Program-made: the position numbers and the translations under genes
Shown: positions 2,873 through 50,720 of the stretch, in pieces
How the letters are laid out: the number at the start of each line of letters is the position of its first letter
Numbering within the stretch: the first letter of the stretch is position 1
Assembly: GCA_041492985.1 (NCBI GenBank)
Contig: JBGPXY010000001.1
Location: forward strand, 1 to 52,057
Source of the DNA: Candidatus Eiseniibacteriota bacterium
Lineage (GTDB): Bacteria; Eisenbacteria; RBG-16-71-46
DNA: 52,057 nt
Direction of reading: 5' to 3'
Notes under the pieces: generated by a model
What the model saw: the letters and a program-made list of their open reading frames with translations, nothing else
Databases searched by the model: none
Told to the model about the DNA's origin: nothing

Positions 2873-2899
2873 TGGAGGCGGCACCCGGATTCGAACCGG
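2873..2899 (-). repeat. 27-nt direct repeat of the 3' end of tRNA-Cys (T-arm 3' part, acceptor and CCA); att-like scar
   Basis: TGGAGGCGGCACCCGGATTCGAACCGG is identical to 4547-4573 inside the intact tRNA-Cys. No matching 5' acceptor strand lies nearby, so this is not a gene. Confidence 0.75.
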
Positions 2900-4546: not shown

Positions 4547-4621
4547 TGGAGGCGGCACCCGGATTCGAACCGGGGAATAAGGGTTTTGCAGACCCTCGCC
4601 TTACCACTTGGCTATGCCGCC
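4547..4621 (-). tRNA. tRNA-Cys (anticodon GCA), CCA encoded
   Basis: The minus strand reads GGCGGCA TA GCC AAGTGGTAA GGC G AGGGT CTGCAAA ACCCT TATTC CCCGG TTCGAAT CCGGG TGCCGCC T CCA. This folds as a cloverleaf with a GCA anticodon and the U73 discriminator characteristic of tRNA-Cys. Confidence 0.95.
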
Positions 4622-6489: not shown

Positions 6490-6590
6490 GCTTCGTTCCC
6501 CCTCCAGTCCTCTCAAACGACATCACCCCAGCGAGAACAGGTCGCTGGGGCGATTGGCTATCGGTCTGAGGCGATGTCGGTTGCGTGACT
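6490..6590 (+). repeat. Intergenic module, short variant (copy A')
   Basis: Hairpin CCCCAGCGA-GAACAGG-TCGCTGGGG (6526-6550), followed by CGATTGGCTATCGGTCTGAGGCGAT and GTGACTTTGGC. Shares the hairpin-proximal blocks with 16583-16636 and 40402-40450. Confidence 0.55.
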
Positions 6591-6740
6591 TTGGCACGGG
6601 TCCGGTGTAGAGCGAATTCAAAGCCGCAGCAACCTCTGGCGCCATGTGCGGCTCGAGGTCTCGAGCCGCGCGAAGAAGAGATCGCCGCCGCCGGTTCTCC
6701 CAACCCCGTCGCGTCCTCGCCACGGATCTCGTCTCCGACC

Positions 6741-6941
6741 CTGCTACCGTTTGCTACCGTCTCAGAGTCCCAACGAGTCCTCTCGTGTCCCCTCCTGTCC
6801 CCGCAAATGATATCGCCCCAGCGAGGCAACTCGTTGGGGCGATGGGGGGAATCACTTGGGGCGATGCGGCTTGCGCGCTCTCGTTGAAAAACAAGCCTCC
6901 AGGTTTTGCAGACCCTCGCCTTACCACTTGGCTATGCCGCC
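6741..6941 (+). repeat. Intergenic module, full-length copy B, ending in a 40-nt tRNA-Cys 5'-half copy
   Basis: Collinear with 16508-16694. Contains decamers CTGCTACCGT/TTGCTACCGT, GAGTCCTCTCGTGTCCC, decamers CGTGTCCCCT/CCTGTCCCCG, hairpin 1 at 6816-6839, two GGGGCGAT boxes, hairpin 2 at 6868-6897 and TTTGCAGACCCTCGCCTTACC... Confidence 0.7.
6902..6941 (-). pseudogene. tRNA-Cys 5'-half fragment (positions 1-41: acceptor 5' strand, D-arm, anticodon stem-loop); not a functional tRNA
   Basis: 40/40 identity to 4582-4621. Identity breaks inside the 3' strand of the anticodon stem. No T-arm or 3' acceptor strand follows. Confidence 0.8.
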
Positions 6942-7224
6942 TCGGAAGTGTCGCGGGGCGCGGAAGGTAGCACGCCGAAAGAGGGAGCAACAACCTGAGT
7001 GGCCCGGAGGAGTGTGGGTTCAACAAGCGTCCAAGAGCAAGGTTCTCTACGACAGCGGGTCAACCCCACTTCCAGGTAGGCATGGGCGCCGTGAGGGCAT
7101 CATGCGCCGCGTTCGATTCCCCTGGGCCGAGCACGAGAGTTTCCGGGTGCCGGGCGCGCATCGTCCGGAATCGGCTGGCGTCGATCTCTCGCGAGATACG
7201 GGCCAACCGCGTTGCCGATGGGCA

Positions 7225-11202: not shown

Positions 11203-11212
11203 CTGGTCCTCA

Positions 11213-13559: not shown

Positions 13560-13566
13560 CGGGCGC

Positions 13567-14157
13567 CTACTTCTTCATCGCGAAGTCGGCCGTCGTGATC
13601 CCGGCGACCGTCACCGGTCTGGCAGCCTCCGCCTTGAACTTCGGGTGCCACACCTTCACTGTGTAGGCACCGTCCGGCAGATTCTTGATGGAGTAGGCGC
13701 CGGTCTTCTCGGTGACTGCGAACCAAGGGGTCGGCAGCGCGATGATGAAGCCCTCCATCTCGGCGTGCACCTTGCACAGGAGCGTGGCGTTGCACCGCGT
13801 CTTGAAGGTGTAGCTGCGAGTCTGACCTTGCGGCCAGCTTCCCAGATTGAACTGCTCGCAGCACTTGTCCGGCGAAAAGACGTTGTGGAGAACCTGGTCG
13901 CCATTGAGGAAGTCGACCGTGGTTCCCTGCTGGACCGGCAGGACGTGCGGCGTGAACACCAGGTTCTGCTGGTTCATCCTCGCGTGGGCCGTCGGGGCCG
14001 GGAACGTCCTCCCGGGAATCGCGTCGATGTAGACCACCGCGTCCCCATTGGTCTTCGCGCCCATGACCGTGACGACGCCCTTCAACTCGCCCGCCGGGGC
14101 GGCCGAAGCCGCCGCCAGCAGGATCACGGCGCATCCCACGCCAGATAGAACTCGCAT
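13567..14157 (-). CDS. Secreted cupredoxin (type-1 blue copper) fused to a CarboxypepD_reg-like beta-sandwich
   Basis: Carries a signal peptide. Putative copper ligands are H in VLHNVF and CKVHAEM (C-x2-H-x2-M). The C-terminus has TGAYSIKNLPDGAYTVKVWHPKF. Confidence 0.8.
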   Translation of the reverse strand: MRVLSGVGCAVILLAAASAAPAGELKGVVTVMGAKTNGDAVVYIDAIPGRTFPAPTAHARMNQQNLVFTPHVLPVQQGTTVDFLNGDQVLHNVFSPDKCCEQFNLGSWPQGQTRSYTFKTRCNATLLCKVHAEMEGFIIALPTPWFAVTEKTGAYSIKNLPDGAYTVKVWHPKFKAEAARPVTVAGITTADFAMKK

Positions 14158-14191
14158 ACCGTTTCCTTTCGTGAGTCGGCCGGTGACGAAA

Positions 14192-15514: not shown

Positions 15515-15553
15515 AGCCCCTCCTCGTTTCAGTGGGACAATCGAACGAGGACG

Positions 15554-15582
15554 AGCCTAGAAGGACGCCGCGGGCGTCACAA
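15554..15582 (-). promoter_or_regulatory. Candidate sigma70-type promoter of the respiratory operon
   Basis: The minus strand reads TTGTGA-N17-TAGGCT, about 40 nt upstream of the ATG at 15514, in a locally AT-richer stretch. Confidence 0.3.
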
Positions 15583-15604
15583 TCAGCGGAATGAATCATT
15601 TCTT

Positions 15605-15622
15605 CTGATGCAGATGCATCAG
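15605..15622. promoter_or_regulatory. 18-bp palindrome CTGATGCA-GA-TGCATCAG, a candidate HTH-dimer (LuxR-type) operator or the terminator of the regulator gene
   Basis: The half-sites are perfect 8-bp inverted repeats, flanked by ATCAT/ATGAT. This is the most AT-rich patch of the region. It is centred about 35 nt upstream of the putative -35 and lies 30 nt downstream of the PAS-LuxR stop. Confidence 0.35.
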
Positions 15623-15651
15623 ATGATCGCCCAGTCGGGGAAGGGGGCAGG

Positions 15652-16302
15652 CTAGAGGAGATGTGTGCGGAGCGCCAGCGAGACCGCTTCGAGCTTGCTG
15701 TGAACGTCGAGCTTGCGGAGGATGTTCTGGACGTGGTTGCGCGTCGTGGCGACACTGATGAAAAGTGAGTCGGCGATGCCCTGAGTGCTGGCGCCCTCAG
15801 CCAGGAGCCGCAGGATCTGGATCTCTCGCGAGGTCAGGGCCGGGGATGTCGCCGACGGCGCATCACCGGTCACGGGTCGGGACACCGGCGGCGTGGGCTG
15901 ATCGGTCAGGATCCGACGGATCAGCGCGCTGGCCTCGCGCTGGCGGTCGACTTTCGCGAGGAAGTGGACGAGCGTGTACTGGCGTGGGCGCGGCCCCGGC
16001 AACACCACGATCGAGAAGTGGGCCGGTATGAGCTCGCCCGACTCGGTACGGACGTCGAGTTCGAAGCGCCGCGCCGTTTCGTGCCGTTCGACCATGAACG
16101 TCAGGGAGCACTGGCGGTCGCAGAAGCGGTTGCCAAAGACATCACGACCACAGATGATCTCGTGGCAGGACTTGCCGAGCACCTGGGAGGCGTGGTAGCC
16201 GAGCAACTCCTGGGCACCCTTGTTCCAGATGGCGATGCGCCCCTTCTCGTCAGTCGCAAAAGCGGCGCCGCCAGCGCGGGCGACCACATCCAGTGGGTCC
16301 AC
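15652..16302 (-). CDS. PAS-domain LuxR/GerE-family transcriptional regulator
   Basis: 216 aa with a GTG start. N-terminal PAS (GRIAIWNKGAQELLGY...) carries a Cys cluster CHEIIC...C..QC. The C-terminus has LTSREIQILRLLAEGASTQGIADSLFISVATTRNHVQNILRKL. Confidence 0.85.
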   Translation of the reverse strand: MDPLDVVARAGGAAFATDEKGRIAIWNKGAQELLGYHASQVLGKSCHEIICGRDVFGNRFCDRQCSLTFMVERHETARRFELDVRTESGELIPAHFSIVVLPGPRPRQYTLVHFLAKVDRQREASALIRRILTDQPTPPVSRPVTGDAPSATSPALTSREIQILRLLAEGASTQGIADSLFISVATTRNHVQNILRKLDVHSKLEAVSLALRTHLL

Positions 16303-16507
16303 GGTCAGCTCGCCCTCTCACCTCTGCGTTCGAATGAGTCTCCCGCTGCGGTTCGCCCAGCGGTAGCGCGCACCAGAGCCGATCGTCCCACATCGTCCCG
16401 CGAGACGACAGCGGGATCGTTGGGCCCGGGCCCGTCGGGGAGCGCATGCGCTCGTCCTCTGAGCCAAGGCGCCGCAGACAGACTTGACTCCATCCTAGTC
16501 CCCCCAC

Positions 16508-16694
16508 TTGCTACAATTTGCTACCGTCTCAACTTCCTCATGAGTCCTCTCGTGTCCCTTCGTGTCCCCTCGAAGGATATCTCCCCAGCGAAGGCAACTC
16601 GCTGGGGCGATTGGGCTATCGGTCTGGGGCGATATCGCTCGCGGGCTCGGCGTTGAAGAAAATCGCGCCGAAATTTGCAGACCCTCGCCTTACC
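16508..16694 (+). repeat. Intergenic module, full-length copy C, ending in a 21-nt tRNA-Cys fragment
   Basis: Collinear with 6741-6941. Decamers at 16508-16527 and 16551-16570. Hairpin 1 at 16583-16607, hairpin 2 at 16647-16671, and TTTGCAGACCCTCGCCTTACC at 16674-16694. Confidence 0.7.
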
Positions 16695-16830
16695 TGTGGC
16701 GAATACGCAGATCAGCGCCTTGCGGAACCATGGCCTGCGTCACCAGGAATGCCCGATCATGGCTCCGAGGGTGCCACCCTCTGGGGACGGGATGCCGGCT
16801 ACGCCCGCGCCAGCCTTGGGAGCAAGCGAA

Positions 16831-18014
16831 TCAGACCTCCATCACCGCGGCCGTAATGACGTTGATGAACAGGTCTCCACCCCAGTGCGGTGACCCCACC
16901 CTCGCCCCTTGGTAGCTTTGAACCGAGAAATAGCACCCGACGATCTCATGAACCGGGTCCACCCATAAGGACATGCCGCCGGAGCCGCCATGGCAGAACG
17001 AGGCTGGCGAGTAAAGCGATCCGTCTCGCAGACCTCTCTTGGTCCCATGGATGTCCCAACCGAGACCCCACCCCGCCTCGGGGAACAGCTCGTCGCCGTC
17101 CCTTGCCGGGATCCCGGGAATCTGGTTTCGCGTCATCTCGGTAACGGACGCAGGGCTCAAGATCCTGACATCGCCGCGGCAGCCGCGATCGAGAAACATC
17201 TGGGCGAAGATCGCCATATCCATCGCAGTCGAGTACGCGGCGCCGTTGGCCCAGGGGGTGTGCTGAAATGTCGGGGTTTCGAGCCCGGGCTCTGAACCGA
17301 GGCTCACGGCCCACCCCGCCTCCATCCGGCGACGCACCAGTCGGGATCGCGAAGACTCGCGTACGCCGAATGACGTGTCGATCATGCGCAGTGGCTCAAA
17401 GATTCTCTTCGCTGCGAACTCCGACACGGATTGCCCGCTCACCCGGCGCACGATCTCGCCCAGCAGGCGATAGCCATAGTCGCAGTAGGACATCTCTACA
17501 CCCGGCGGCTTCGACAATGGCGCCTGATAGCGCAACCCCAACCACTCGTGCATGTAGGGGGGCTGGTCGCCCACGGGGGGAGGAGCGGCGAGCGTGCCGC
17601 GATTCTGCTTCACATACGTTTCGAGCTGCTCATCGTTGAACCCCGAGGTGTGCGTCAGGAGATGGTGGACCATGACGGAGCTCTTGCCTTCGCCCTGGAA
17701 CTCCGGGATGTATTCGGCCACCGGTCGGTTGAGTCCCAGCAACCCGTCTTCCACCAGAATCATGACCGCGGTGGCCGCAATCGGCTTGGTGATGGAAGCC
17801 AGGGGGAAGATCGTGTCCCTCTCGACCCGTGGAGCACCGGGCTCGGGCGTCAGGTGCCCGTGTGCCTCGTGAAGGACAACGATGCCGCGTCGCGCGGCAA
17901 GAACCACCAGCGCTGGCGTGCGCTCTTGCGCTACCAGTCGCGCCGCCAGATCTGCGGCGACACGCACGCGATCGGGCGACATCCCGACCTCTTCGGGGGT
18001 TCCCGTGCGCAGGC

Positions 18015-18018
<4 letters not shown>
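16831..18018 (-). CDS. Serine hydrolase, beta-lactamase/transpeptidase-like fold (class C / EstB-like)
   Basis: 395 aa with the SxxK motif ASITKP. The TTG start overlaps the kinase stop as TTGA. The N-terminus MSLRTGTPEEVGMSPDRVR parallels the paralog MKLRDGDPEEAGMSAERIR. Confidence 0.85.
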
Positions 18019-21662
<3,644 letters not shown>

Positions 21663-21896
21663 CCCTGAACCTCCTGCACCAGCCGGCGTTCTTCAGGATC
21701 CGACGCGCGATGCGACGAGGCTCGCACATGGAGCGGGACGTCGCAATGCGAGACACCGACACGCGCTGGTGCCGATGCCGGTGGGCGCTGGGGCATCGGA
21801 CCGGAGCCCGGCGCTGCGTTCGGAGTCGGGGAACGGAGCATTCGCCACTCGGGCGGGTCCCCGCTACGCTACGATCGTCTGACGCGGAGGTGGCTG

Positions 21897-23078
21897 ATGA
21901 AGCTGCGCGATGGCGATCCGGAAGAAGCTGGGATGTCCGCGGAGCGGATCCGTCGACTGAGCGGGCTTGCGAAAGGCTGGGTGGATCAGGGAATGACACC
22001 TTCCCTGGTCGTTCTCGTCGCCCGAAAGGGCGTTGTCGTTCTCCACGAAGCGTTCGGCAAGCTGACTCCCGAGCCGGGCGCGCCGCCGCTTCCGAAGGAT
22101 GCGATCTACCCGATCGCCTCGATCAGCAAGCTGTTCACCGCGACGGCGGCCATGATTCTCGTCGACGACGGCCTGCTCGGGTTGCATCGGCCAGTCCAGG
22201 AGTACATGCCCGAGTTTGTGGGCCAAGGCAAGGACGCGGTCATGGTCCACCACCTGCTCACCCATACGTCGGGTTTGCGGGGCGAAGACCTGGATGAGCT
22301 CGTTCGGCGCAAGCTCGGCTCTGGCGAGATCCAGCCTTCTCCAGATGCAGTTCATCCCGGGCTCAACGAGTTCCCAGCGCTTCAGTATTTCTCCCAGACG
22401 CACGATGCTCCGCTCAGCTACCGACCGGGTGCCGAGATGTCGTATTGCGGCTATGGCTACCGACTGCTTGCCGAGATCATCGCGCGAGTGAGCGGAAGCA
22501 GCCTTGCCGAATTCGCGCAGGCGCGAATCCTCGGTCCACTCGGATTGGGCGATACCTTCTACGGTCTGCCAGACGGCCGGCGGGCTCGGCAGGTGCGCCG
22601 CGGACCCGAGGCTCCTCTTGCGCTTCTCGATGATCCCACCACCGCGCCATGCTTTGCCGGGATGGCCGGCATGTTCTCGACCGCTCGCGACCTCGCGGCG
22701 TTCGGGCGGATGATCTTGAATCGGGGCCAGTACGGTGCGGCGAGGATCGTCAGCGCCGCGTCAGTCGCCGAGATGACTCGAAACCAGGTTCCGGGCGTCC
22801 CCGGATCCTACCGGGGAGAGGTATTCCCGGAATCGTCCTGGGGGCTTGGCTGGGACGTCCACGGCACCAAGCGGAGCCTCCGGGAGGCATCGCTCTTCTC
22901 ACCCCGAGCGGTGAGAATGGGCGGCGGTGGCGGCACCAACTTCTGGGTCGATCCGGAGCATGAGCTGGTCGGCGCCTACTTGTCGGTCCAGGTGCATCCG
23001 GGGAGCAAGGAATCCTCTCCCGGGTGGCGGGCGGACGTGTTCGTCGACGCCGCGACGGCGGCGATCGTCGAGCCATGA
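21897..23078 (+). CDS. Serine hydrolase, beta-lactamase-like fold (paralog of 16831..18018)
   Basis: 393 aa with the SxxK motif ASISKL. It is collinear with the other copy along its whole length by eye. Transcribed divergently from the kinase gene. Confidence 0.85.
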   Translation: MKLRDGDPEEAGMSAERIRRLSGLAKGWVDQGMTPSLVVLVARKGVVVLHEAFGKLTPEPGAPPLPKDAIYPIASISKLFTATAAMILVDDGLLGLHRPVQEYMPEFVGQGKDAVMVHHLLTHTSGLRGEDLDELVRRKLGSGEIQPSPDAVHPGLNEFPALQYFSQTHDAPLSYRPGAEMSYCGYGYRLLAEIIARVSGSSLAEFAQARILGPLGLGDTFYGLPDGRRARQVRRGPEAPLALLDDPTTAPCFAGMAGMFSTARDLAAFGRMILNRGQYGAARIVSAASVAEMTRNQVPGVPGSYRGEVFPESSWGLGWDVHGTKRSLREASLFSPRAVRMGGGGGTNFWVDPEHELVGAYLSVQVHPGSKESSPGWRADVFVDAATAAIVEP

Positions 23079-23311
23079 ATCCTCAGCCAGCGCGACTACC
23101 GCCCCGGCCCACCCACGCGCAGGCCAACACATGCCGCGTCGTTTGAACGTGGAACCGTTCGACGCCTGAGCGTTTGCGCGCCATTCGCGTGCGGCGGCGC
23201 CGGCGTTCGCGACCCGATCCCGCGCAATGGCCGCGAGGAACCCATAAACGCCGGCGGACCTCGCCCGACAGGGAGTGTGGCAGTCCCCGCACCCTTTCGT
23301 GGAGGCTCGTC

Positions 23312-25720
23312 ATGCGTCGCACCCGTATTGCCGCCGTGGTTCTGCTCGCCACCTTGGCCGCCGTCGCCAGCGCTCGATACGCCCGCGCCGACGATGCGGC
23401 GGGCTCGTTCTCCGCCACCAACAATCCGTTCGGCCGCTGGAGCTACGGCTACACGAGCGACCGCGGCGGCACTTTCACGCTGTTCGACACGCACGCCCCG
23501 GACGGGGCGGGGCTCGACGTGTGGAAGAAGGTCGGGACGCAGGCGCAGGTCGCCCACAACGGGACGGGCGCACCCAAGCTGGTCGGCGGCACGGTGTACA
23601 CGCTGAACGGCGGGCTGAATCTGACGCCGGGCGCCAACTCCGAGTGGTCTGTCGCGCGGTGGACGGCGGCCGCGGCGGGGAGCTATGCCATCAACGCTCA
23701 CTTCTTCCCCCGGGCGCTGGCCAACGCGAGCGGAGGCGCCGCCGAAGTGGCGGTGCTGCTCAACGGCGCGGTCGTGTTCGATCGGTGGATCCAGTTTCAG
23801 CTCGGGATCAGCACCGCATCCCTCGCGACCACGCTGCCCCTGAACCCGGGAGACAAGCTCGACTTCACGGTCGGCAACGCGGGTGACGGGAACAATCTCG
23901 ACGTGATCGGGCTCGACGCCACCGTGAACGCGATCGCTCCCGACCCGGGACCGGCGGGGCTCGTCTTCTCGTTCGGAGGCCAGCGTTACGTCGGTTGCAA
24001 ATGGGGCTCGTGCTTCGAGTCGATCGCGTTCGATCCGGTCAACCGCCGGCTCGCCTCGAAGAACTTCATCCGCGACCTGTGCGGCAACCAGGTTTCGGCC
24101 GGACCCGACGAGCAGCCGGGCCTGTCGTGGGACTCGAAGACCGGGACGTACTGGCAGGTCACGAATGACCGCACCATTCGGCGCTGGAGCAGCGCGGGCG
24201 TGCTGGTGGACACCGTGTTCACGATCCCGCTCACCTTCACGGTGCCGACCACCGGACCGGACACGCTGGAGGCGGTGAAAGGGATCGCGACCGATTCCAG
24301 CTTCGTCTACCTGGTGGACGCGGGCCCGGTGCCCGGCGCCATCCCGTCGTGCGAGTGGTTCAAGTTCAGCCGTACCGGCACGCCGGTGAAGTCGTCGAAG
24401 GGCACGAACTTCAATGCCAACCTCGGGCCTGGTCCCGACGCGACGGTGGACGACATCTGCTACGTGCCGTTCTCGTCACCGGTGCTGCCGGGCCGGCTGG
24501 TGGTCGCGATCGAGCACACCGGGCTGCAGGTGATCGACACCAATGGCAACTTCGTCTCGAGCTTCCGCTGGACCGATCAGGGATACGCGACCCGACCGCT
24601 CGCCGCACTCGCCGGTCTCGCGATCGATCCTCTGACGGGCAACTTCTATCTCGGCGACAACGACAAAGGCGCTGCGCTGGTGTTCACGCGCATCGTGCCT
24701 CAAGGCGCGGCCTCGTATACCGTCGGTGGCATCGACGGTTCGGGCGCGCTCGGGGCGGACCTCAAGAACCCGACTCCGGGTTGCGATCTTCCGCTGTGGT
24801 CGCCGTATGGGGTGCCGGCGAACAGCAGCGGCAACTTCTTCGGTCTCGCCTATCGGACCGTTGACCGATCCGCCTACACGCTGGACTTCGGCACCCCGGC
24901 CGATCTGTGGCGCTTCGATCCGCGCATCGGCTCCGGAGCGCGCGTCGGGCCGACCGGCATCGACGGCTCGTGGAGCCTCGCCTACGACAGCGAGCGCGAC
25001 GTGCTCTACGGTGCTGTCGGATTCCCCGCCTCACGGGTCGTGACCATCGACCCGGCGAGCGGTAGCACCGTTTCGCTGCCAAATCCATCCGGGTACTCGT
25101 TCGGGTCCAGCACCGACCTGGCCTGGAACTCGATCGACAAGAAGCTCTACGCGGTCGACGCCTCGGTGAGCCCTCGCCACCTGCTCCGCATCGATCGCGA
25201 CACGGGTATCGGCGTGGTGGTGGGCAACACGACCGCGCGCAACGGCGGGCTCGATTTCGACGCCTCGACCGGGAAGCTCCAGGCCTACGACGGGACGACC
25301 GGCAACCTGGTTTCGATCGATCCCGCGACCGGAACTACCACCCCCCTGAACACGCTGCAGCGACAGGCAGGCTTCGAGGGCCTGGCGGTGGTGCCGGTCC
25401 CCTCAGCCCCGGCCGTCGCCGTGTTCGAGCTGCCTCCGCCAACGATGTCGGAGGCCATGGTCGCGGTCCCCAACCCGACCTCCGGCGCCACGCGCCTCGA
25501 CTTCTCGCTGCCGGCGGCCGAGACCGTGACGATCGGCGTCTACGACGTCGCGGGCCGGCGCGTCCGCGAAGTGGCATCGGGCCGTTATGAGGCGGGGCCG
25601 CATCGGGTGAGCTGGGATGGTCGCGACGGCGACGGCCGTCCGGCGCCGAGCGGGGTCTACTTCGCGCGAGTTGACATGGGCACGCGGACCCGCGTCGCGC
25701 GCCTGGTCGTCTCTCGGTGA
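23312..25720 (+). CDS. Secreted repeat/beta-propeller-like protein with FlgD-Ig/T9SS-type C-terminal sorting domain
   Basis: RBS GGAGG. Signal peptide MRRTRIAAVVLLATLAAVASARYARA. The C-terminal 80 aa are PNPTSGATRLDFSLPAAETVTIGVYDVAGRRVREV...SGVYFARVDMGTRTRVARLVVSR. Confidence 0.75.
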   Translation: MRRTRIAAVVLLATLAAVASARYARADDAAGSFSATNNPFGRWSYGYTSDRGGTFTLFDTHAPDGAGLDVWKKVGTQAQVAHNGTGAPKLVGGTVYTLNGGLNLTPGANSEWSVARWTAAAAGSYAINAHFFPRALANASGGAAEVAVLLNGAVVFDRWIQFQLGISTASLATTLPLNPGDKLDFTVGNAGDGNNLDVIGLDATVNAIAPDPGPAGLVFSFGGQRYVGCKWGSCFESIAFDPVNRRLASKNFIRDLCGNQVSAGPDEQPGLSWDSKTGTYWQVTNDRTIRRWSSAGVLVDTVFTIPLTFTVPTTGPDTLEAVKGIATDSSFVYLVDAGPVPGAIPSCEWFKFSRTGTPVKSSKGTNFNANLGPGPDATVDDICYVPFSSPVLPGRLVVAIEHTGLQVIDTNGNFVSSFRWTDQGYATRPLAALAGLAIDPLTGNFYLGDNDKGAALVFTRIVPQGAASYTVGGIDGSGALGADLKNPTPGCDLPLWSPYGVPANSSGNFFGLAYRTVDRSAYTLDFGTPADLWRFDPRIGSGARVGPTGIDGSWSLAYDSERDVLYGAVGFPASRVVTIDPASGSTVSLPNPSGYSFGSSTDLAWNSIDKKLYAVDASVSPRHLLRIDRDTGIGVVVGNTTARNGGLDFDASTGKLQAYDGTTGNLVSIDPATGTTTPLNTLQRQAGFEGLAVVPVPSAPAVAVFELPPPTMSEAMVAVPNPTSGATRLDFSLPAAETVTIGVYDVAGRRVREVASGRYEAGPHRVSWDGRDGDGRPAPSGVYFARVDMGTRTRVARLVVSR

Positions 25721-25952
25721 TGTGGAACGACCCAGGGCCAAGGCACTGACTCACTCCGGGGAGTCACCCTCTGGGTGGCTGAGGGTCTTGCGGTGCGATT
25801 GACCGGGTACGCGCAGGCGACGCTGCGCCTGGAAATCGACGAGCCGGAGTCGGATCAGGCGCCGACCGCGCGGGCGCCCGTTCGCGCCATCACTGTCTTG
25901 CAGGGCAGGGAGCCATGGCGCACTTCTGGGCGCGAAAACAGAGGGGCGATCG

Positions 25953-26171
25953 TCATGACCACACCGGGCGCATCACGTCTTCGAAGCGGGGATCTCGGCG
26001 CACCATGTCCCAGAAGGACGTGACGCGCGACCACAGGATGAGCGGATCGCGCTCGACCACCGCCCGCTCCACCCGGTGGATGGGTTCGTCGGGGAGTCCG
26101 GCCGCCGCGGGCGGCAGCGCCCAGTCGGGTTCGCGCTCGAGGTTTCTCGCGAGCAAGGTGCTCCGGCCCAC
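25953..26171 (-). pseudogene. Possible relic of a TPR-type C-terminal tail (ERDPLILW....DMVRRDPRFEDVMR)
   Basis: 72-aa ORF immediately downstream of the kinase-TolB gene. It resembles the ...ERDP.L.WL..DP.FD.LR.DPRF..LLRR tails common in kinase/cyclase-TPR proteins. It could also be a spurious ORF. Confidence 0.3.
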
Positions 26172-26264
26172 CCCGGGATGGGCACCGCTAGCTTCTCCAG
26201 ATCCCCGCCAGCGGGACGACCGCTCTCCTGCTCCCGCTCGATGCCGAACGAGGCGGAACCAGAG

Positions 26265-28982
26265 TCACTTCCGCTCTCCCTGCCTCTCGCCCATTCGCGC
26301 CTTCAGCCGCTTCGCCCAGCCCAGCGACAGCGCGATCTCGCGCCGCTCGGCCACGCCACGCGGCGGGCGGGTGAACAGGAACCGGTCGCTGATCGGATCG
26401 TAGTCGTAGTCGCGGAACGCGATCTCGGTGGCCGCCGGGGGGACCTCGAACAGCGCTTCGGGCTGTCCGATCGCAGGGCCGCCGCCGCGCGCGTCAATGG
26501 GCACGCGCATCAGGATCTCACCGCTGACTTCGAACAGCTCACGCCCCGCCCGACCCCAGCGTATGGCGCCGGCCCCGCCGGTCGAGAGTTGCCAACTCCC
26601 TGCGCTCCCGTCCAGCCGGCGCAGGCAGACCTCCTCGCGTCGGGTCTTGTTCGTGACGTAGGCCAGCCACCCGCCGTCGGGAGACACCCTGCCGGCCAAC
26701 TCGTAGCCGTCGCCCTCGATGCGGATCTCCCGGGACGGGACGTCGCCGTCCGCCGCGGCAATGTGGATGCGGCCCGTGCGCTGCCCGTAGTCACAGTAGA
26801 CGACTCCGCGGCCGTCAGGGGTGACGTCGGTCACGATCAGCGGGTGCGGGGCGCGCGCCCGCTCGCGCTCGCCACCCGCGCCGTCCAGGCGGCGCACCAC
26901 CACCACCTCGCTTCCTGCGGAATCCCTCCTGGTGTACGCGATCCGCACACCGTCGGGAAACCAGGCTCCGGGACCGCTGCGGCCGCCGTAGGTGAGGCGG
27001 TTGATCGCGCCGCTGCGGAGATCGGCGAGCCACAGGTCGGTCGCCCCGCCCCCGGGGCCCGCCGCGATCAGGGCGCGCGCGCCATCGGGTGAGATGCGCA
27101 GCTGGGTATAGGGCCCGGCGGGGATCGCGGTCGGTGTCCAGCGACCCGACCGGTCCATCCACCCCACCTCGCGCGTCACCTCGCGTTCTCCGCCGGGGAG
27201 CCAAGCGATCGTCCCGTCGTCGGCGATGCCGAAGAATGATGCTCCGCTCGACGCGTCGCCGCTCACCCCGGCGAGCACCGGCACCGGATCCTGCGTGATG
27301 CGGGGGTCGCGGGGGTCGATGCGGGCGGCATAGAGGTCGGTGCCCCGGGCCAGGAGGACATACCCGCCAGGGGCCCAGGCGGCGCGCCGCGCGCCCTTGT
27401 AGAGATGACGGCGCTCCCCGGTGCGCACGTTGACTGCGTCGATGCCGGCGTCGTCGTAGCCTCCGGGGCTGTCCACGGTCTGCACGGTGAACACCACCCA
27501 CGGCCCGCCGTCGAGCGCGCATGGGAACCGGTGCGTCCGCTCCCGCCTCGTGGTGTCGAGGGCGGTGATGGCGACCGGCGTGCCTCCGCTCTCCGGGATC
27601 CGGTAGAGCGGCTCCGTGGTCTCGCGCGAATACACGATCGTGCCGTCGTCGAGCCACGTGCCGAGCCTGTCCTGAAGCGCGTCGGCGAGCTCGACCGGGG
27701 TGCCGCCGCGAACCGAGACCTTGCACATCTTGCGGGTGTCGAAGAACCCGATCCATTGGCCGTCGCGCGAGAAGAACATGTTGCGCGCCCCGTCGGCGCC
27801 CGGGATCTCAATGTCTTCGCGCGCATCCAGCCGGCGCAGGCGCAGTTTCAGCACGCCCCCGATGCGCACCGTGTAGGCGATCGCCCGGCCGTCGGGAGCG
27901 ATGGCCATGGGGTGATAGCTGATGTCCTCGGCCACGCGCTGCCCCCCGGCGGGCACGATGCTCAACTCGGTCGCGGAGGGCGCGGGCGGCGGCATGCGCC
28001 ACAGCGAGACGGCGAGGGCGACCACGGCGGCCGCGGCGAGAAGCCAGGGAATGAGCGCGGCGCGACGCGCGGGTGCCGGCCCCGTCGCGGCGCCCGCCTC
28101 GGGCAGGGTGTCCCCGGGGTTGGCCGCCAGGTCCTCGAGCGCGATGCGCGCCTCACCGATCGCCTGCAGGCGCCGCCGCGGGTCCTTGGCCAGGCAGCGC
28201 ACGAGCAGCCGTCGCCAGCGCGGGGAGAGTCCGGACGGTAGCGCCGACCAGTCGGGCTCGTCGCGCATCACCGAGGCGAGCGTGTCGGAAATGGTGTCGC
28301 CCACGAAGGCGTGGCGCCCGGTGAGCATCTCGTAGACGACGGCGCCGAATGCCCACACGTCGGCGCGGCGGTCGGCCTCGCGCCCGCGCGCCTGCTCAGG
28401 CGACATATAGGCGGCGGTCCCCAGGATCACTCCCTCGTGGGTCATCCGCTGGGTGAGGGTCGGCGATTGGCTGAGCTCGGCGGTCGAGCCGCTCGCATCG
28501 GTCGCAAGTGCGCGGGCGAGACCGAAGTCCAGTACCTTGACCGTGCCGTCGGGCCGGAGCTTCACGTTGGCGGGCTTGAGGTCCCGGTGCACGATGCCGC
28601 GCTCGTGCGCGTACTCGAGCGCCTCGGCCAGCTGCCGCGCGATGGGCAGGGCGTCGGCGGTGGCGAGCGCCCCCGAATGGATGCGCTCGGCGAGCGTTTG
28701 CCCTTCCACCAACTCCATGACGAGCGCGTGCGAGCCGCCTGCCTCCTCGACCCCGAAGATCGATGCGATCCCGGCGTGGCTCAAGGCCGCCAGCAGCCGG
28801 GCCTCGCGCTCGAAGCGGGCGAGGCGCTCGGCGTCGCCCGCCAGGGCATCGGGCAGCACCTTGATCGCCACCTCGCGCCCGAGGCGCGGGTCGCGCGCGC
28901 GGTACACCTCCCCCATCCCGCCCGCGCCGAGCGGGGCGACGATCTCGTAGGGGCCGAGGCGAGTGCCGGGGGTGAGTGGCAT
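26265..28982 (-). CDS. Ser/Thr protein kinase with one TM helix and a periplasmic TolB-like/WD40-like beta-propeller region
   Basis: 905 aa. Kinase motifs GAGGMGEVY, HRDLKPAN, DFG, SPEQ. A TM helix lies around ALIPWLLAAAAVVALAV. Repeated SPDG/APDG...Y propeller blades. Confidence 0.9.
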   Translation of the reverse strand: MPLTPGTRLGPYEIVAPLGAGGMGEVYRARDPRLGREVAIKVLPDALAGDAERLARFEREARLLAALSHAGIASIFGVEEAGGSHALVMELVEGQTLAERIHSGALATADALPIARQLAEALEYAHERGIVHRDLKPANVKLRPDGTVKVLDFGLARALATDASGSTAELSQSPTLTQRMTHEGVILGTAAYMSPEQARGREADRRADVWAFGAVVYEMLTGRHAFVGDTISDTLASVMRDEPDWSALPSGLSPRWRRLLVRCLAKDPRRRLQAIGEARIALEDLAANPGDTLPEAGAATGPAPARRAALIPWLLAAAAVVALAVSLWRMPPPAPSATELSIVPAGGQRVAEDISYHPMAIAPDGRAIAYTVRIGGVLKLRLRRLDAREDIEIPGADGARNMFFSRDGQWIGFFDTRKMCKVSVRGGTPVELADALQDRLGTWLDDGTIVYSRETTEPLYRIPESGGTPVAITALDTTRRERTHRFPCALDGGPWVVFTVQTVDSPGGYDDAGIDAVNVRTGERRHLYKGARRAAWAPGGYVLLARGTDLYAARIDPRDPRITQDPVPVLAGVSGDASSGASFFGIADDGTIAWLPGGEREVTREVGWMDRSGRWTPTAIPAGPYTQLRISPDGARALIAAGPGGGATDLWLADLRSGAINRLTYGGRSGPGAWFPDGVRIAYTRRDSAGSEVVVVRRLDGAGGERERARAPHPLIVTDVTPDGRGVVYCDYGQRTGRIHIAAADGDVPSREIRIEGDGYELAGRVSPDGGWLAYVTNKTRREEVCLRRLDGSAGSWQLSTGGAGAIRWGRAGRELFEVSGEILMRVPIDARGGGPAIGQPEALFEVPPAATEIAFRDYDYDPISDRFLFTRPPRGVAERREIALSLGWAKRLKARMGERQGERK

Positions 28983-29065
28983 CGGTGGAATCTACAGCAT
29001 GACCGTCCTTTCCTCCGATGAAGCGCCGGCTGCGTTCTGGCCGAGGTTCAGCTGGCTAATGCCTC

Positions 29066-29217
29066 CCATCGGTGGCCACCGTTGGCCACCCTTGAGACGA
29101 CGCCCCAGAGGACTCAACCCTCTGGGGCGTCGCGCATTGTATTGCCGCGGACCTGCTTGCAGACTCGGTCTCGTAAGTGACGTGTTTTCGAGGTCCCGCG
29201 TTTGCAGACCCTCGCCT
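29066..29217 (+). repeat. Intergenic module, diverged copy D, ending in a 17-nt tRNA-Cys fragment
   Basis: Same geometry as copies B and C. Decamers CGGTGGCCAC/CGTTGGCCAC at 29070-29089. Hairpin 1 CCCCAGAGG-ACTCAAC-CCTCTGGGG at 29103-29127. Hairpin 2 at 29149-29196. TTTGCAGACCCTCGCCT at 29201-29217. Confidence 0.55.
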
Positions 29218-29265
29218 GACCACACGAGGGACGAGGCCGGCGCGCCTGGAGGCGAAGGGCCCGAG

Positions 29266-34015: not shown

Positions 34016-34061
34016 GGGGCGGCGCGCCGGCCGGGTGTGAGAGCACCCTTCACGCCGCCCC
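34016..34061. terminator. Nested GC-rich stem-loop between convergent genes (possible bidirectional terminator)
   Basis: Outer stem GGGGCGGCG (34016-34024) pairs with CGCCGCCCC (34053-34061). Inner stem GGGTG (34033-34037) pairs with CACCC (34044-34048). There is no U-tract. Confidence 0.25.
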
Positions 34062-40303: not shown

Positions 40304-40380
40304 GCGGTAAGATGCCGGACCCCTTCTGGCAGGTCCACGGAGAGTTCGAAGGTGGCCCCGGCGCACCCGGCGCGGGCCCC

Positions 40381-40450
40381 AGGTCCCTCCGATGGAATCA
40401 GCCCCGGCGAGAATAACTCGCTGGGGCGATTGGCTATTGGTCCGGAGCCT
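40381..40450 (+). repeat. Intergenic module, short variant (copy E)
   Basis: Hairpin CCCCGGCGAG-AATAA-CTCGCTGGGG (40402-40426, one G-U pair when read on the plus strand). It is followed by CGATTGGCTATTGGTCCGGAGC and GTGACTGTGGC, as in copy A'. Confidence 0.5.
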
Positions 40451-40507
40451 CAGAAGTGTGACTGTGGCTGGTGAAGCGTCGTGACGGGGGGCGAAGGCCC
40501 GAGCGCG

Positions 40508-41371
40508 TCATGCGACCCGGGCCGCGAGATCGCGCAGGAAATCCCCGGGCTCGAAGCCGTAGTCCTGTCGCGCCGGGCGGATATCGTAGCCCTTGGCCAC
40601 GACCAGCCGGTCCAACTGATCCGGATTGAATGGGACGGGCAGGCGACAGCGCACCGCGGCCCGCAGGAGTCCGATCGGCACGGGGACACACCTCACCCGC
40701 ATGCCCGCGCGTCTCAGGGCGTTCGCCATGTCGGGCGCCGTACACGGTTGTTCGGCGCACAGCGTGTAGACGGCCCGCGAGCGCACGAAGCGATTCACGA
40801 CATCGAGAAGGAACTGCGTGACCCGCTCCGCCGACACGGGGGCGTACCGCACCGGACCGTTGTCGCGGAAATCCACCATGATGCGCGTGCGCAGTGCGAG
40901 TCCGACCAGGACGTCGATCCCCTCCGCCGACTCGAGGCCGTAGATCTCGGCCGGTCGCACGATGACCCAGTCCAGACCGCTCGCGCGCACCGCTTCCTCG
41001 GCGCGCAGCTTGGATGCCCCGTAGGCCCCCGCATCGGGATGTGCGCAGATGGTGCTCATGTGGATCAGCCGCTGGCCCGGCCGCGCGCTGTCCAGCAGCC
41101 GGCGCGTGAGGACGTGGTTCACGTGCTCATAGCGCGACCCATCGTCGCTATGTGTCACCGCGGCCAGGTGGACGATGATGTCGGCCTCGCCGATGCGCGC
41201 GGCGTGACCCTGGCACCGCTCGAGCCCGTCCGGCAGCAGCTCCACGCGCCCACCGCGGTCGTCCACCGGCTGCCGGTGCACCGTGGCGAGGATCCGGTGG
41301 GTGGGCAGCAGGCCGTCGATGAGTGCCCGGCCCAGTGCGGAGCTCGCACCCGTCACCAGCACGGTGCTCAT
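40508..41371 (-). CDS. NAD-dependent epimerase/dehydratase-family (SDR) protein
   Basis: 287 aa. N-terminal Rossmann VLVTGASSALG. Catalytic YGASK. ATGA overlap with the upstream GT2 gene. Confidence 0.8.
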   Translation of the reverse strand: MSTVLVTGASSALGRALIDGLLPTHRILATVHRQPVDDRGGRVELLPDGLERCQGHAARIGEADIIVHLAAVTHSDDGSRYEHVNHVLTRRLLDSARPGQRLIHMSTICAHPDAGAYGASKLRAEEAVRASGLDWVIVRPAEIYGLESAEGIDVLVGLALRTRIMVDFRDNGPVRYAPVSAERVTQFLLDVVNRFVRSRAVYTLCAEQPCTAPDMANALRRAGMRVRCVPVPIGLLRAAVRCRLPVPFNPDQLDRLVVAKGYDIRPARQDYGFEPGDFLRDLAARVA

Positions 41372-42144
41372 GCGCCGGTCCGGTGCCGCTGGTAGCGCGG
41401 CCCGAAGCGGTACGCCAGCAGGTGACGCAGGAACTCGAACACCGCCCCCGGCCTCACGAACGACTTGCGACCACCCAGGCTCTGGAACTTGACGGGGATC
41501 TCGTACATGCGCAGGCGCAGGGCCAGGCAATTGAGCATGATCTCCGCGTCGACGAACCAGTCGTCGCTGAGCAGCTCCATGCGCTGGAAGGCCTCCCGCT
41601 TCATGATCTTCGGCTTCGAGTTGACGTCCGAGAAGCCGCGGTAGGCGGGGAACAGCAGATTGAACAGTCGTTGATAGATGAAGGAGATGAAGTTGCGGTA
41701 GAGCCCATCGGCACGCACGACCCGGTAGGTCTTGATGAAGTCGTAGTCCTCGCTCCTGATCTTCGCGAAGCAGGAGAAGATGGCTTCGACCGGGAACTGC
41801 CCGTCGCCGTCGATCACCCCGATGTAACGCCCGCGGCAGGCCTCCAGGCCCTTGCGCATGTCCCAGCCCATGGCCCCCTGCTTGGGCTCGGCGATGCACC
41901 GCACGTGGAGGAGCCTCGCGGCCAGGCTCTGACACACCTCGGGCGTGCGATCCCCCGTTCCGGGCCAGAAGTTCGCGACCAGCACCAGCTCCCATTCGAT
42001 GCGGAACATCGACATGATCCGGTGCAGGTTCTCGACGAACGGGATGATGGACTCACCTGCGCGATAGCACAGGATGGCCATCGAGAATTCCACCGGCGGG
42101 TCCTGCGACTGACTCTCCATCGGGCGCCGAGGATAACCCGTCAC
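41368..42144 (-). CDS. Family-2 glycosyltransferase, polyprenol-phosphate sugar synthase type (ArnC/GtrB/DPM1-like)
   Basis: 258 aa with SMAILCYRAGE (start of the GT-A fold), the IDGDGQFP DxD motif and a C-terminal amphipathic/TM segment. Confidence 0.85.
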   Translation of the reverse strand: MTGYPRRPMESQSQDPPVEFSMAILCYRAGESIIPFVENLHRIMSMFRIEWELVLVANFWPGTGDRTPEVCQSLAARLLHVRCIAEPKQGAMGWDMRKGLEACRGRYIGVIDGDGQFPVEAIFSCFAKIRSEDYDFIKTYRVVRADGLYRNFISFIYQRLFNLLFPAYRGFSDVNSKPKIMKREAFQRMELLSDDWFVDAEIMLNCLALRLRMYEIPVKFQSLGGRKSFVRPGAVFEFLRHLLAYRFGPRYQRHRTGA

Positions 42145-50564: not shown

Positions 50565-50720
50565 CCCCGCCTCGTCCGGCGCCCGCGCGTCCTCCGCTGC
50601 GCGCGGTGGTGATGCTCACCCCTCCGCGCGCGGGTTGAACGCGTCCTCGGTCGTGCGATATCGTCGGGCCATCGAACCTGACGAGAACACAGTGACGAGA
50701 CCTCCAGAGGGAGTGCGTGC

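What the first reader, a model, noticed from the sequence alone, without database searches (positions are those of the whole stretch)
29066..29217. Diverged module copy keeps both hairpins through compensatory changes
Hairpin 1 in this copy is CCCCAGAGG-ACTCAAC-CCTCTGGGG. In copies A' and C it is CCCCAGCGA-N7-TCGCTGGGG. Two inner base pairs are swapped on both arms (C:G to A:T and A:T to G:C), and the stem length (9 bp) and loop size (7 nt) are kept.

Hairpin 2 also exists in all three long copies, with unrelated stem sequences:
- copy B: GGCTTG/CAAGCC, 6868-6897;
- copy C: TCGGCG/CGCCGA, 16647-16671;
- copy D: GGACCT/AGGTCC, 29149-29196.

In each case hairpin 2 ends 2-7 nt before TTTGCAG.

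The only two imperfect pairs in hairpin 1 are in copy B (6816-6839) and copy E (40402-40426). Both are G-U when read on the plus strand and would be A-C on the minus strand. That weakly favours a plus-strand RNA or plus-strand ssDNA.

A dsDNA protein-binding palindrome would normally conserve sequence rather than covary.
Basis: seen in the sequence. Interest (0 to 1): 0.65.

Follow-up and report, generated by a model that had tools for sequence, protein, structure and literature searches.

The report
Island-end repeat beside tRNA-Cys gene fragments
The repeated "module" is most likely the conserved end of mobile genomic islands that inserted one after another into a tRNA-Cys gene, each leaving a copy of the gene's 5' half; its strong hairpin is real, but there is no good evidence that it is a new structured RNA.

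Summary
Hairpin 1 is real at the stated coordinates and is longer than reported: 14 perfect pairs in copy D, 13 in copy B. Four or five pairs changed on both arms, but every such change comes from copy D alone, so this is one lineage and not replicated covariation. A related metagenome copy (L014b) has two uncompensated mismatches. Hairpin 2 is not a consensus structure. The plus-strand G-U argument fails once the full stem is scored.

TTTGCAGACCCTCGCC… is the anticodon loop plus 5' half of the intact tRNA-Cys(GCA) gene at 4547-4621 (minus strand). Each full module lies against such a fragment, in the gene's orientation and upstream of it, and the match always starts at the same base. The module also carries direct repeats spaced exactly 10 bp apart. 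In D these repeats changed in concert, as the palindrome did.

This anatomy fits attP-like junctions in a tandem array of integrase-less islands of the known, minor "5' tDNA fragment, anticodon-centred" type. The palindrome is probably a terminator-like insulator without a U-tract, or else a protein site. No integrase, empty site or transcript evidence was found. Modest interest.

The parts
4547..4621 (-). Intact tRNA-Cys(GCA) gene, the integration target. Its 5' half (4582-4621) is what is repeated at the modules.
   Evidence: ARAGORN; Rfam tRNA 69.3 bits; repeat family D4; blastn.
2873..2899 (-). Displaced 3'-end fragment of tRNA-Cys (27 nt, 100%), downstream of the gene. It marks a separate, classical 3'-type island remnant that carries HigB/HigA (3766-4411).
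   Evidence: (D19); Pfam Gp49 and HTH_37.
6493..6587 (+). Copy A': truncated module (one GTCC repeat at -19 with a degenerate TTCC at -29, hairpin 1 at 6526-6550, GGGGCGAT motifs). No tRNA fragment.
   Evidence: nhmmer E = 1.8e-19.
6730..6904 (+). Copy B module arm. GCTAC repeats at 6743 and 6753. GTCC repeats at 6767, 6777, 6787 and 6797 (10-bp phase). Hairpin 1 at 6812-6843 (13 bp, one G-T). GGGGCGAT twice. Weak hairpin 2 at 6868-6897.
6902..6941 (-). Displaced tRNA-Cys 5' half (gene positions 1-40, 100% identical), with a decayed promoter-like region to its right.
16496..16673 (+). Copy C module arm. GCTAC repeats at 16510 and 16520. GTCC repeats at 16544, 16554 and 16564. Hairpin 1 at 16583-16607. 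Hairpin 2 at 16647-16671.
16674..16694 (-). tRNA-Cys fragment (anticodon loop to D-arm, 21 nt, 100%).
29048..29200 (+). Copy D (the finding): diverged module arm. TGGCCACC direct repeats at 29073-29080 and 29083-29090 (the same -29/-19 positions as GTCC in the other copies). Hairpin 1 at 29098-29132 (14 bp perfect, loop ACTCAAC). Hairpin 2 at about 29145-29199 (CGCGGACCT/AGGTCCCGCG).
   Evidence: (E = 2.1e-6).
29201..29223 (-). tRNA-Cys fragment (22 of 23 nt), the outermost in the array. It is followed by CGAGGG, which is an inverted repeat of CCCTCG.
40380..40445 (+). Copy E: truncated module (hairpin 1 at 40402-40426 with one G-T, then GGGGCGATTGGCTAT). It lies 76 nt after the stop of the minus-strand gene 40508-41995.

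Best explanation
The 'module' is the conserved arm of the attachment site of a family of integrative genomic islands that target the anticodon loop of tRNA-Cys(GCA).

Each incoming island brought its own copy of the tRNA 5' half plus promoter. That copy rebuilt the gene at 4547-4621. The previous 5' half was pushed outward, where it now abuts the far end of the newer island, which is the module. The window therefore holds a tandem array, in this order:
- the tRNA gene;
- a 2.3-kb island;
- junction B;
- a 9.7-kb island;
- junction C;
- a 12.5-kb island;
- junction D.
There are also truncated remnants A' and E. The islands carry accessory operons and no integrase.

Junctions B and C are attP-like, about 265 bp: GCTAC x2, GTCC x3-4 in 10-bp phase, palindrome, GGGGCGAT, the core TTTGCAG, the tRNA 5' half and a promoter-like box. 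Copy D is the same junction from a diverged family member. Its protein-site repeats and its palindrome both changed in concert.

Hairpin 1 is a palindrome selected for base pairing. I infer, but have not shown, that it works as a terminator-like or insulating RNA hairpin without a U-tract at the island boundary, usable in either direction. One likely job is to stop read-through from the displaced tRNA promoter into the island. This would resemble lambda tI/sib, which lies next to attP.
For: Shown:
- TTTGCAGACCCTCGCC… equals the tRNA-Cys gene from the anticodon loop towards its 5' end.
- In the window, all fragments are co-oriented with the gene and lie upstream of it.
- In 9 junctions (window plus metagenome contigs L010, L011, L014 twice, L015 and L016), the match to the tRNA begins at the same base, the 3' edge of the anticodon loop.
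- The Islander paper lists this configuration as legitimate: 159 of 3919 islands have 5' fragments, 2083 have anticodon-centred attP sites, and attP is about 250 bp (PMC4383910).
- Successive integrations that leave partial tRNAs scattered through an island are described for tycheposons.
- GTCC motifs lie at exactly -39, -29 and -19, and GCTAC at -73 and -63, from the hairpin in 6-8 copies. This is typical of phased protein-binding arrays.
- The repeats at -29 and -19 changed in concert in D.
- DNA on the module side in L016 and L011 is defence-island-like: decayed type I R-M genes, ABC-3C, FRG and HNH.
- The same tRNA also has a classical 3' fragment with HigBA on its other side.
- A TATAAC/TATAAG box lies about 23 nt upstream of the displaced 5' halves in L011, L014 and L015.
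- Hairpin 1 folds on both strands in every copy. The inner pairs remain complementary and are swapped in D.
- Similar GC-rich hairpins without a U-tract lie 12-43 nt after stop codons elsewhere in the window.
- Truncated copy E and the hairpin-1 matches in L012 and L017 lie about 0-80 nt after the end of the nearest ORF on the module's minus strand; only E's gene (40508-41995) was checked against a protein-family library.
Against: - No integrase, excisionase or transposase was found in the 52-kb window or in the ORFs scanned from four related loci (L010, L011, L014, L015) and from the module side of L016; L012, L017 and the ORFs on the other side of the L016 module were not scanned.
- No empty site or integrase-bearing relative could be retrieved. 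Homologues of the flanking genes lie in unrelated contexts.
- The C and D fragments are internal pieces of 21-23 nt, not full 5' halves. Those junctions do not by themselves show that the gene was restored.
- The hairpin has no U-tract on either strand, and the terminator scan does not flag it.
- There is no transcript evidence.
- GC-rich hairpins of comparable energy are common in this genome, even inside genes.
Confidence: 0.6

Rival explanations
1. Hairpin 1 acts as double-stranded DNA. It would be a palindromic binding site for a dimeric recombination accessory protein, an integrase arm domain or a regulator within the att arm. D would carry the site variant that matches its own diverged protein.
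For: GGGGCGAT occurs three times per module. It forms both outer arms of the palindrome, inverted, and occurs once more as a direct copy 22-23 nt downstream in 9 of 10 non-D copies. The palindrome lies 19 nt from a 10-bp-phased repeat array. The direct repeats changed in concert in D, which shows that sites and protein co-evolved in this module.
Against: Complementarity extends over 13-14 bp, up to the loop and well beyond the GGGGCGAT motif. The inner pairs are swapped yet stay complementary in D. That is more than a protein half-site normally needs. D has no third direct copy of its own outer motif. No candidate protein gene was found.
Confidence: 0.22
2. Hairpin 1 forms in single-stranded DNA. 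It could be an oriT or single-strand-origin hairpin of a mobilisable island, or an attC-like structure-specific recombination site for a trans-acting integrase. In the second case the array would be an integron-like cassette array.
For: Structure is conserved while sequence is replaced. All units in the array lack an integrase, and one unit in L014 is a single 1.5-kb gene. A conserved block follows the hairpin, ATTGG(G)CTATCGGTC. D's loop ACTCAAC fits RYYYAAC.
Against: No relaxase, Rep or integron-integrase gene was found. The stems are perfect, with none of the extrahelical bases typical of attC. The loops of other copies (GGGTAAG, GAACAGG, GGGTAGA) do not fit RYYYAAC. The sharp shared breakpoint in the anticodon loop points to a duplex core-type crossover, not to the hairpin.
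Confidence: 0.07
3. One reading: the module encodes an independent structured plus-strand RNA, either a cis-regulatory element or a small RNA, with two conserved hairpins.
For: Hairpin 1 is very stable, and the whole-module fold z-scores are -2.2 to -4.7. D has compensatory swaps. The 9-bp core has G-U pairs on the plus strand.
Against: There is no Rfam match, even at E <= 1. The RNAalifold covariation term is about 0, and only hairpin 1 is predicted. Hairpin 2 is not conserved. The minus strand folds equally well. Cases of G-U on the minus strand exist. Phased direct repeats and the tRNA fragment explain the rest of the conservation at the DNA level. The neighbouring genes in the window are on the minus strand.
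Confidence: 0.05
4. The module is a small non-autonomous repeat (MITE- or REP-like) that spreads on its own and only happens to contain or capture a tRNA-like piece.
For: There are five copies in 52 kb. The truncated copies A', E and L017 and the E-like hairpin-1 match in L012 lie in short intergenic spacers after the end of the nearest ORF, as REP elements do. L016 shows core-like GACCCTCGCCTGAC pieces on the left of the module as well.
Against: An exact-pattern scan of 241 million metagenome records gave only 8 loci. Five of the six or seven true homologues carry the tRNA 5' half. No copy was found in GTDB representative genomes. There are no terminal inverted repeats or target duplications. 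All full copies have one orientation relative to the tRNA gene.
Confidence: 0.05

Closest known systems
tDNA-targeting genomic islands with a displaced 5' tDNA fragment and an anticodon-centred attP (Islander classification; Hudson, Lau & Williams 2015, PMC4383910)
   Same: There is an intact tRNA gene plus co-oriented 5' fragments upstream of it. The crossover boundary lies at the anticodon loop. The conserved att unit is about 250-270 bp. The fragments form a tandem array. The cargo is accessory genes.
   Different: No integrase lies in any of the three or four units, so Islander would reject them. Two fragments are internal pieces of 21-23 nt. The att arm contains a 13-14-bp palindrome. The lineage is an uncultured, Eisenbacteria-like bacterium.
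Tycheposon-built tRNA-anchored islands of Prochlorococcus (Hackl et al., bioRxiv 10.1101/2020.12.28.424599)
   Same: Successive integrations at one tRNA push older elements outward. Degenerate elements and scattered partial tRNAs remain behind.
   Different: There is no sequence relationship. Tycheposons retain recognisable tyrosine recombinases in many copies. No comparable hairpin module is mentioned in that text (0 hits for 'hairpin').
CIMEs and site-specific accretion of ICE/IME (review PMC5704250; my own knowledge of Pavlovic et al. 2004)
   Same: These are integrase-less DNA segments bounded by att sites, arranged in tandem next to a tRNA-type target, and presumed to be mobilisable in trans.
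   Different: No cognate integrase-bearing element has been identified here, so trans-mobilisation is only conjecture.
Lambda tI/sib hairpin next to attP (my own knowledge)
   Same: A stable hairpin lies just beyond the att core, on the arm opposite the recombination genes. It is separated from or joined to upstream transcription units depending on integration state.
   Different: The position relative to int cannot be tested here because there is no int. There is no U-tract and no RNase III evidence.
Integron attC sites (my own knowledge)
   Same: These are recombination-associated palindromes conserved in structure rather than sequence, repeated along an array of units that lack an integrase.
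   Different: Here the stems are perfect and have no extrahelical bases. There are no R''/R' core motifs across the copies and no IntI. The units are 1.5-12 kb operons. The shared breakpoint lies in the tRNA anticodon loop, not in the hairpin.
tRNA-dependent lysogeny with a short common core (Guerrero-Bustamante & Hatfull 2024, PMC10865867)
   Same: In that system attP shares only a short core with a tRNA gene, so the junction does not rebuild the tRNA. The 21-23-nt pieces at C and D look similar.
   Different: No element-borne complementing tRNA-Cys is seen here, and an intact gene exists at the array's end.

Membership tests
tDNA-integrated genomic island (Islander criteria) | Intact tDNA plus a cognate tDNA fragment on the same replicon, in the same orientation | tested here: met
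   The tRNA-Cys gene is at 4547-4621. Fragments are at 6902-6941 (40 nt, 100%), 16674-16694 and 29201-29223, all co-oriented.
tDNA-integrated genomic island (Islander criteria) | Correct configuration: a 5' fragment upstream of the tDNA, or a 3' fragment downstream | tested here: met
   All 5' fragments lie upstream of the minus-strand gene (at higher coordinates). The 3' fragment at 2873-2899 lies downstream. The rule is quoted.
tDNA-integrated genomic island (Islander criteria) | The fragment is an end fragment of the tDNA, not an internal piece | tested here: inconclusive
   B, L010, L011, L014 and L015 reach tRNA position 1. C and D cover only about positions 17-37.
tDNA-integrated genomic island (Islander criteria) | A tyrosine integrase gene inside the candidate island | tested here: not met
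   Pfam and PHROGs scans of all sizeable ORFs in the window and of selected ORFs in L010, L011, L014, L015 and L016 found none.
tDNA-integrated genomic island (Islander criteria) | Sporadic presence, with an empty target site in relatives | not testable with these tools
   Homologues of the flanking genes lie in unrelated contexts.
CIME-like integrase-less att-bounded element | A segment bounded by directly repeated att sites, with no integrase of its own | tested here: met
   The units 4622-6901, 6942-16673 and 16695-29200 are bounded by the TTTGCAG-core repeats and lack an integrase.
CIME-like integrase-less att-bounded element | att sites related to those of an identified integrase-bearing element | not tested
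   No integrase-bearing relative was retrieved. There were no hits in IMG/VR, phage or plasmid collections.
Canonical intrinsic (Rho-independent) terminator | A GC-rich stem-loop | tested here: met
   Stems of 9-14 bp with 6-7-nt loops.
Canonical intrinsic (Rho-independent) terminator | A U-tract immediately 3' of the stem | tested here: not met
   No T-run follows on either strand, and the scan does not flag the hairpin. Hairpins with identical stems in other taxa do carry T-runs (L009; L019).
Integron attC | An imperfect hairpin with extrahelical bases and RYYYAAC/GTTRRRY core sites, next to an IntI-type integrase | tested here: not met
   The stems are perfect. The loops are not conserved as RYYYAAC. 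No integrase was found.
Described structured RNA family (Rfam 15) | A match to a covariance model | tested here: not met
   Only the tRNA matches at gathering score. Nothing better than E = 0.2 around the modules.

The most novel reading that the evidence does not exclude
The array is not debris from conventional islands. Instead it is a working cassette-accretion system anchored at tRNA-Cys. Integrase-less operon-sized units, each ending in the 265-bp module, would be captured and excised by a trans-acting recombinase. That recombinase would recognise the structure-conserved hairpin, perhaps as folded single-stranded DNA, together with the phased repeats. This would be functionally parallel to integron attC recombination but evolutionarily separate from it.
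Probability: 0.06. Interest if true: 0.75.

Novelty: new member of a known kind. Interest (0 to 1): 0.3.

Why it matters
The finding identifies a previously undescribed attachment-site arm in a poorly known phylum (an Eisenbacteria-like lineage). It also gives an example of the uncommon class of tRNA-targeting islands that replace the 5' half of the gene, promoter side included, rather than the 3' half. Elements of that class leave a promoter-bearing tRNA stub pointing into the island. A boundary hairpin conserved in structure would be a sensible adaptation to this, and it could be tested.

The practical lesson is about method. Compensatory-looking changes between paralogous copies of a mobile-element end are not by themselves evidence for a functional RNA, because the direct repeats in the same module changed in concert too.

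Tried and rejected
1. Genome-collection scan for the hairpin plus GGGGCGAT. It returned only unrelated terminator-like hairpins in Acidobacteriota and a Polyangiaceae MAG. These are not module homologues.
2. IMG/VR scans with three module patterns, plus blastn against the phage and plasmid collections. Nothing was found. A D-type stem pattern hit only an ordinary phage terminator.
3. Synteny and empty-site test through homologues of the flanking cytochrome c gene and the FAD/BBE oxidoreductase gene. The neighbourhoods are unrelated, so the test was uninformative.
4. Attempt to walk further into the L016 island through a protein look-up. The pseudogene product is not in the collection.
5. Exact-protein look-ups of window genes. 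These gave only one 3.4-kb contig, which breaks inside module C.
6. tRNA-like fold of the module. The anticodon stem is not closed by module sequence, and the hairpin 1 loop lacks a conserved U33 (from reading the sequences). Rejected.
7. Sigma-54 or sigma-70 promoter at TTTGCAG. The spacing and the scan do not fit. Rejected.
8. CAST-style homing-spacer reading of the tRNA fragment. No Cas or Tns genes are present, and the lineage is wrong for it. Considered and dropped.
9. R388-like nic motif (ATAGCCCA) on the minus strand. This is a single 8-mer coincidence with no relaxase gene. Not pursued.
10. REP-like abundance. This is contradicted by the few metagenome hits.

Full report
OBSERVATION

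The sequence at 29066-29217 is as described. CCCCAGAGG-ACTCAAC-CCTCTGGGG lies at 29103-29127. The pattern CCCCAG-N13-CTGGGG, allowing one mismatch, occurs 4 times on the plus strand against 0.26 expected. The fifth copy, with a 6-nt loop, is at 6816-6839.

The stems are longer than reported. D forms a perfect 14-bp stem (CGACGCCCCAGAGG/CCTCTGGGGCGTCG, 29098-29132). B forms 13 bp (ATCGCCCCAGCGA/TCGTTGGGGCGAT). All three hairpin 2 coordinate pairs are correct.

ARAGORN and Rfam find one tRNA gene in the window, tRNA-Cys(GCA), on the minus strand at 4547-4621. The string that ends every long module, TTTGCAGACCCTCGCCTTACC…, is this gene read on the plus strand, from the anticodon loop towards its 5' end. 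The matches are:
- 6902-6941, identical over 40 nt;
- 16674-16694, over 21 nt;
- 29201-29223, over 22 of 23 nt.

All of these have the gene's orientation and lie upstream of it. A 27-nt fragment of the 3' end lies downstream at 2873-2899, with a HigB/HigA pair between it and the gene. This tRNA gene is therefore a repeatedly used integration site.

RELATIVES

One metagenome scan with the hairpin plus GGGGCGATKGG gave 8 loci.
- L010, L011, L014, L015 and L016 carry the whole module of about 215 nt. L014 carries it twice, 1.5 kb apart.
- L017 carries a truncated copy. L012 has a weak (nhmmer E = 1.3e-3) E-like match limited to hairpin 1 and the following GGGGCGATTGGCT, and may be a chance terminator-like hairpin.
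- L013 is a chance hit inside a gene.

Every full copy ends in the tRNA-Cys 5' half. In the alignment of 9 junctions with the gene, the match starts at the same base, TTTGCAG, which is the 3' edge of the anticodon loop. Three copies keep a TATAAC or TATAAG box about 23 nt beyond the tRNA 5' end, where a tRNA promoter -10 element would lie.

The genome-collection scan gave only unrelated hairpins after genes in Acidobacteriota and a Polyangiaceae MAG. One of them has a T-run. A D-type stem in IMG/VR is likewise an ordinary phage terminator. There were no hits in phage or plasmid collections or in Rfam.

ANATOMY OF THE MODULE

Positions are relative to the first C of hairpin 1.
- GCTAC lies at -73 and -63.
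- GTCC lies at -39, -29 and -19 (also at -49 in B). This exact 10-bp phase holds in B, C, L010, L011, L014b and L015.
- The palindrome follows. Its outer arms are ATCGCCCC and GGGGCGAT.
- A third GGGGCGAT lies 22-23 nt further on.
- A variable stretch follows, then TTTGCAG and the tRNA half.

Similarity stops about 175 nt to the left of the core and about 45 nt beyond the tRNA 5' end. The conserved unit is therefore about 265 bp, which is the size of an attP site.

In D, the motifs at -29 and -19 are both TGGCCACC instead of TGTCCCC. The direct repeats thus changed in concert, just as the two arms of the palindrome did.

CONTEXT

The window is ordinary chromosome from a high-GC bacterium (68% GC). 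It is probably Eisenbacteria-like, judging by T9SS sorting tails and by the only named relative of its cytochrome c.

The stretches between modules carry coherent accessory gene sets:
- a glycine-rich ORF;
- a cytochrome/oxidoreductase cluster with a LuxR-PAS regulator;
- beta-lactamase-like proteins, Ser/Thr kinases and a secreted protein;
- an RND efflux operon with a TetR regulator.

No integrase, excisionase, relaxase or transposase was found anywhere. In L016 and L011 the DNA on the module side holds decayed type I R-M genes, ABC-3C, FRG and HNH genes, which is defence-island content.

STRUCTURE TESTS

Hairpin 1 is in the minimum-free-energy fold of every copy on both strands.

I scored a 14-pair helix on 13 copies.
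- 89.6% of cells pair.
- Five pairs show changes on both sides, and every such cell belongs to D.
- L014b, which was found as a second copy in a locus and not by the search pattern, has G-U plus C-C and C-U mismatches.
- G-U pairs on the plus strand occur in B and in the E/L012/L017/L014b group. My search pattern allowed only those variants, so the L012 and L017 cases are biased.
- A' (pair 10-36) and L014a (pair 8-38) are A-C on the plus strand, which is G-U on the minus strand.

No strand is therefore favoured.

RNAalifold on 10 copies predicts hairpin 1 only, with a covariation term of about 0. The hairpin 2 regions alone have z-scores of -0.17, -1.65 and -1.32. A stem of at least 6 bp in the stated position arises in about 6% of shuffles per copy. 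B's sister copy, L014b, lacks B's hairpin 2.

Hairpin 2 is therefore a conserved sequence within the C-type copies, a reasonable stem of about 9 bp in D, and probably chance in B.

INTERPRETATION

The configuration is an intact tDNA, co-oriented 5' fragments upstream of it, a shared breakpoint in the anticodon loop, and a conserved att-sized unit. The Islander authors use this signature for islands with a 5' tDNA fragment and an anticodon-centred attP. It is a minority class: 159 of 3919 islands have 5' fragments, and 2083 have anticodon-centred sites. Repeated integration that pushes older elements outward and leaves partial tRNAs behind is documented for tycheposons.

In a tandem array, the junction between two related elements is attP-like. 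This explains why module, core, tRNA half and promoter-like box are conserved together at B, C and the metagenome copies. D is the junction of a diverged family member.

The main weakness is that there is no integrase and no empty site. The units are therefore best described as integrase-less remnants, similar to CIMEs. I do not file them as full members of the Islander class.

ROLE OF THE PALINDROME (INFERENCE)

Complementarity runs over 13-14 bp, right up to the loop and beyond the repeated GGGGCGAT motif. It is preserved through swaps in D. This favours real base pairing over two protein half-sites.

A 5'-type island leaves a promoter-bearing tRNA stub aimed into the island's end. A boundary hairpin would block that read-through, and the read-through of island genes in the other direction.

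Other GC-rich hairpins without a U-tract lie 12-43 nt after stop codons in this window: 11599-11642, 34017-34060, 50591-50634 and 51883-51926. Truncated copy E and the hairpin-1 matches in L012 and L017 lie about 0-80 nt after the end of the nearest ORF on the module's minus strand; only E's gene was checked against a protein-family library.

Against this reading:
- there is no U-tract, and the terminator scan does not flag the hairpin;
- stable hairpins are frequent in this genome, even inside genes;
- there is no expression evidence.

A duplex protein site remains a serious rival. An ssDNA role is a minor one.

VERDICT

The element is an att-site arm of tRNA-Cys-targeting islands, which makes it a new member of a known kind. 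The hairpin is a structure-selected palindrome, and its RNA function is unproven.

Noticed in passing
window 2873-2899 and 3766-4411: A 27-nt perfect copy of the tRNA-Cys 3' end lies downstream of the gene. A HigB (Gp49-like) / HigA (HTH_37) toxin-antitoxin pair lies between it and the gene. This is a second, classical 3'-type island remnant on the other side of the same tRNA.
   Followed up: partly
window 4490-4518: GGTTCAATCAAGGGTTTTGC, just downstream of the tRNA gene, resembles its T-loop-to-anticodon part (11-nt exact match AAGGGTTTTGC, E = 1.2). It may be a decayed further fragment, or it may be chance.
   Followed up: no
window 4949-6400 (minus strand): A long ORF with 9-nt-periodic glycine-rich repeats (repeat families D1, D8, D9) is the only sizeable ORF in the 2.3-kb unit next to the tRNA gene. 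It has no Pfam hit and weak PHROG hits to hydrolase and tail proteins. Its annotated 5' end would overlap modules A' and B, so that part is probably spurious.
   Followed up: partly
window 826-2211: The FAD-binding/BBE oxidoreductase is 84-90% identical to proteins labelled Methylomirabilis, Thermodesulfovibrionales, Geobacteraceae, Nitrospirota, Eisenbacteria and Jeongeupia, and these lie in unrelated gene neighbourhoods. This is unusually high cross-phylum conservation, or recent horizontal spread.
   Followed up: partly
window 11599-11642, 34017-34060, 50591-50634, 51883-51926: GC-rich hairpins without a T-run lie 12-43 nt after stop codons. One lies between convergent genes. This suggests that the organism uses gene-end hairpins without a U-tract.
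   Followed up: partly
L016 10761-10774 and 10794-10808: Two copies of GACCCTCGCCTGAC lie immediately to the left of the L016 module. This is the D-type version of the tRNA core, as at window 29207-29220. They look like remnants of further junctions whose island bodies were deleted.
   Followed up: partly
window 6571-6582 and 40455-40466: The truncated copies A' and E diverge from the full modules at the same point. They then share G(C/T)GTGACT(T/G)TGGC (10 of 12 positions). This may be a second variant of the right-hand part, of unknown meaning.
   Followed up: no
window 6648-6669: A perfect 9-bp hairpin, GCGGCTCGA-GGTC-TCGAGCCGC, lies between copies A' and B. It may be the hairpin 2 counterpart of the decayed A' junction.
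   Followed up: no
L014 1-1724: The whole 1.7-kb contig begins and ends inside modules (a C-type and a B-type copy), with a single PQQ-like beta-propeller gene between them. This is the smallest unit seen. L001 also ends inside module C, so assemblies break at this repeat.
   Followed up: partly
window 21189-21334 and 28512-28657; window 7951-8917 and 16151-16178: The other repeat families are ordinary. A 146-nt repeat (73% identity) lies in two paralogous Ser/Thr kinase genes. Of the five copies of a 28-nt repeat, four lie in the multihaem cytochrome c gene (window 7704-10625) about 290-345 nt apart, possibly its repeated cytochrome c domains (not checked), and the fifth lies in the LuxR-PAS gene (window 15652-16302).
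   Followed up: no
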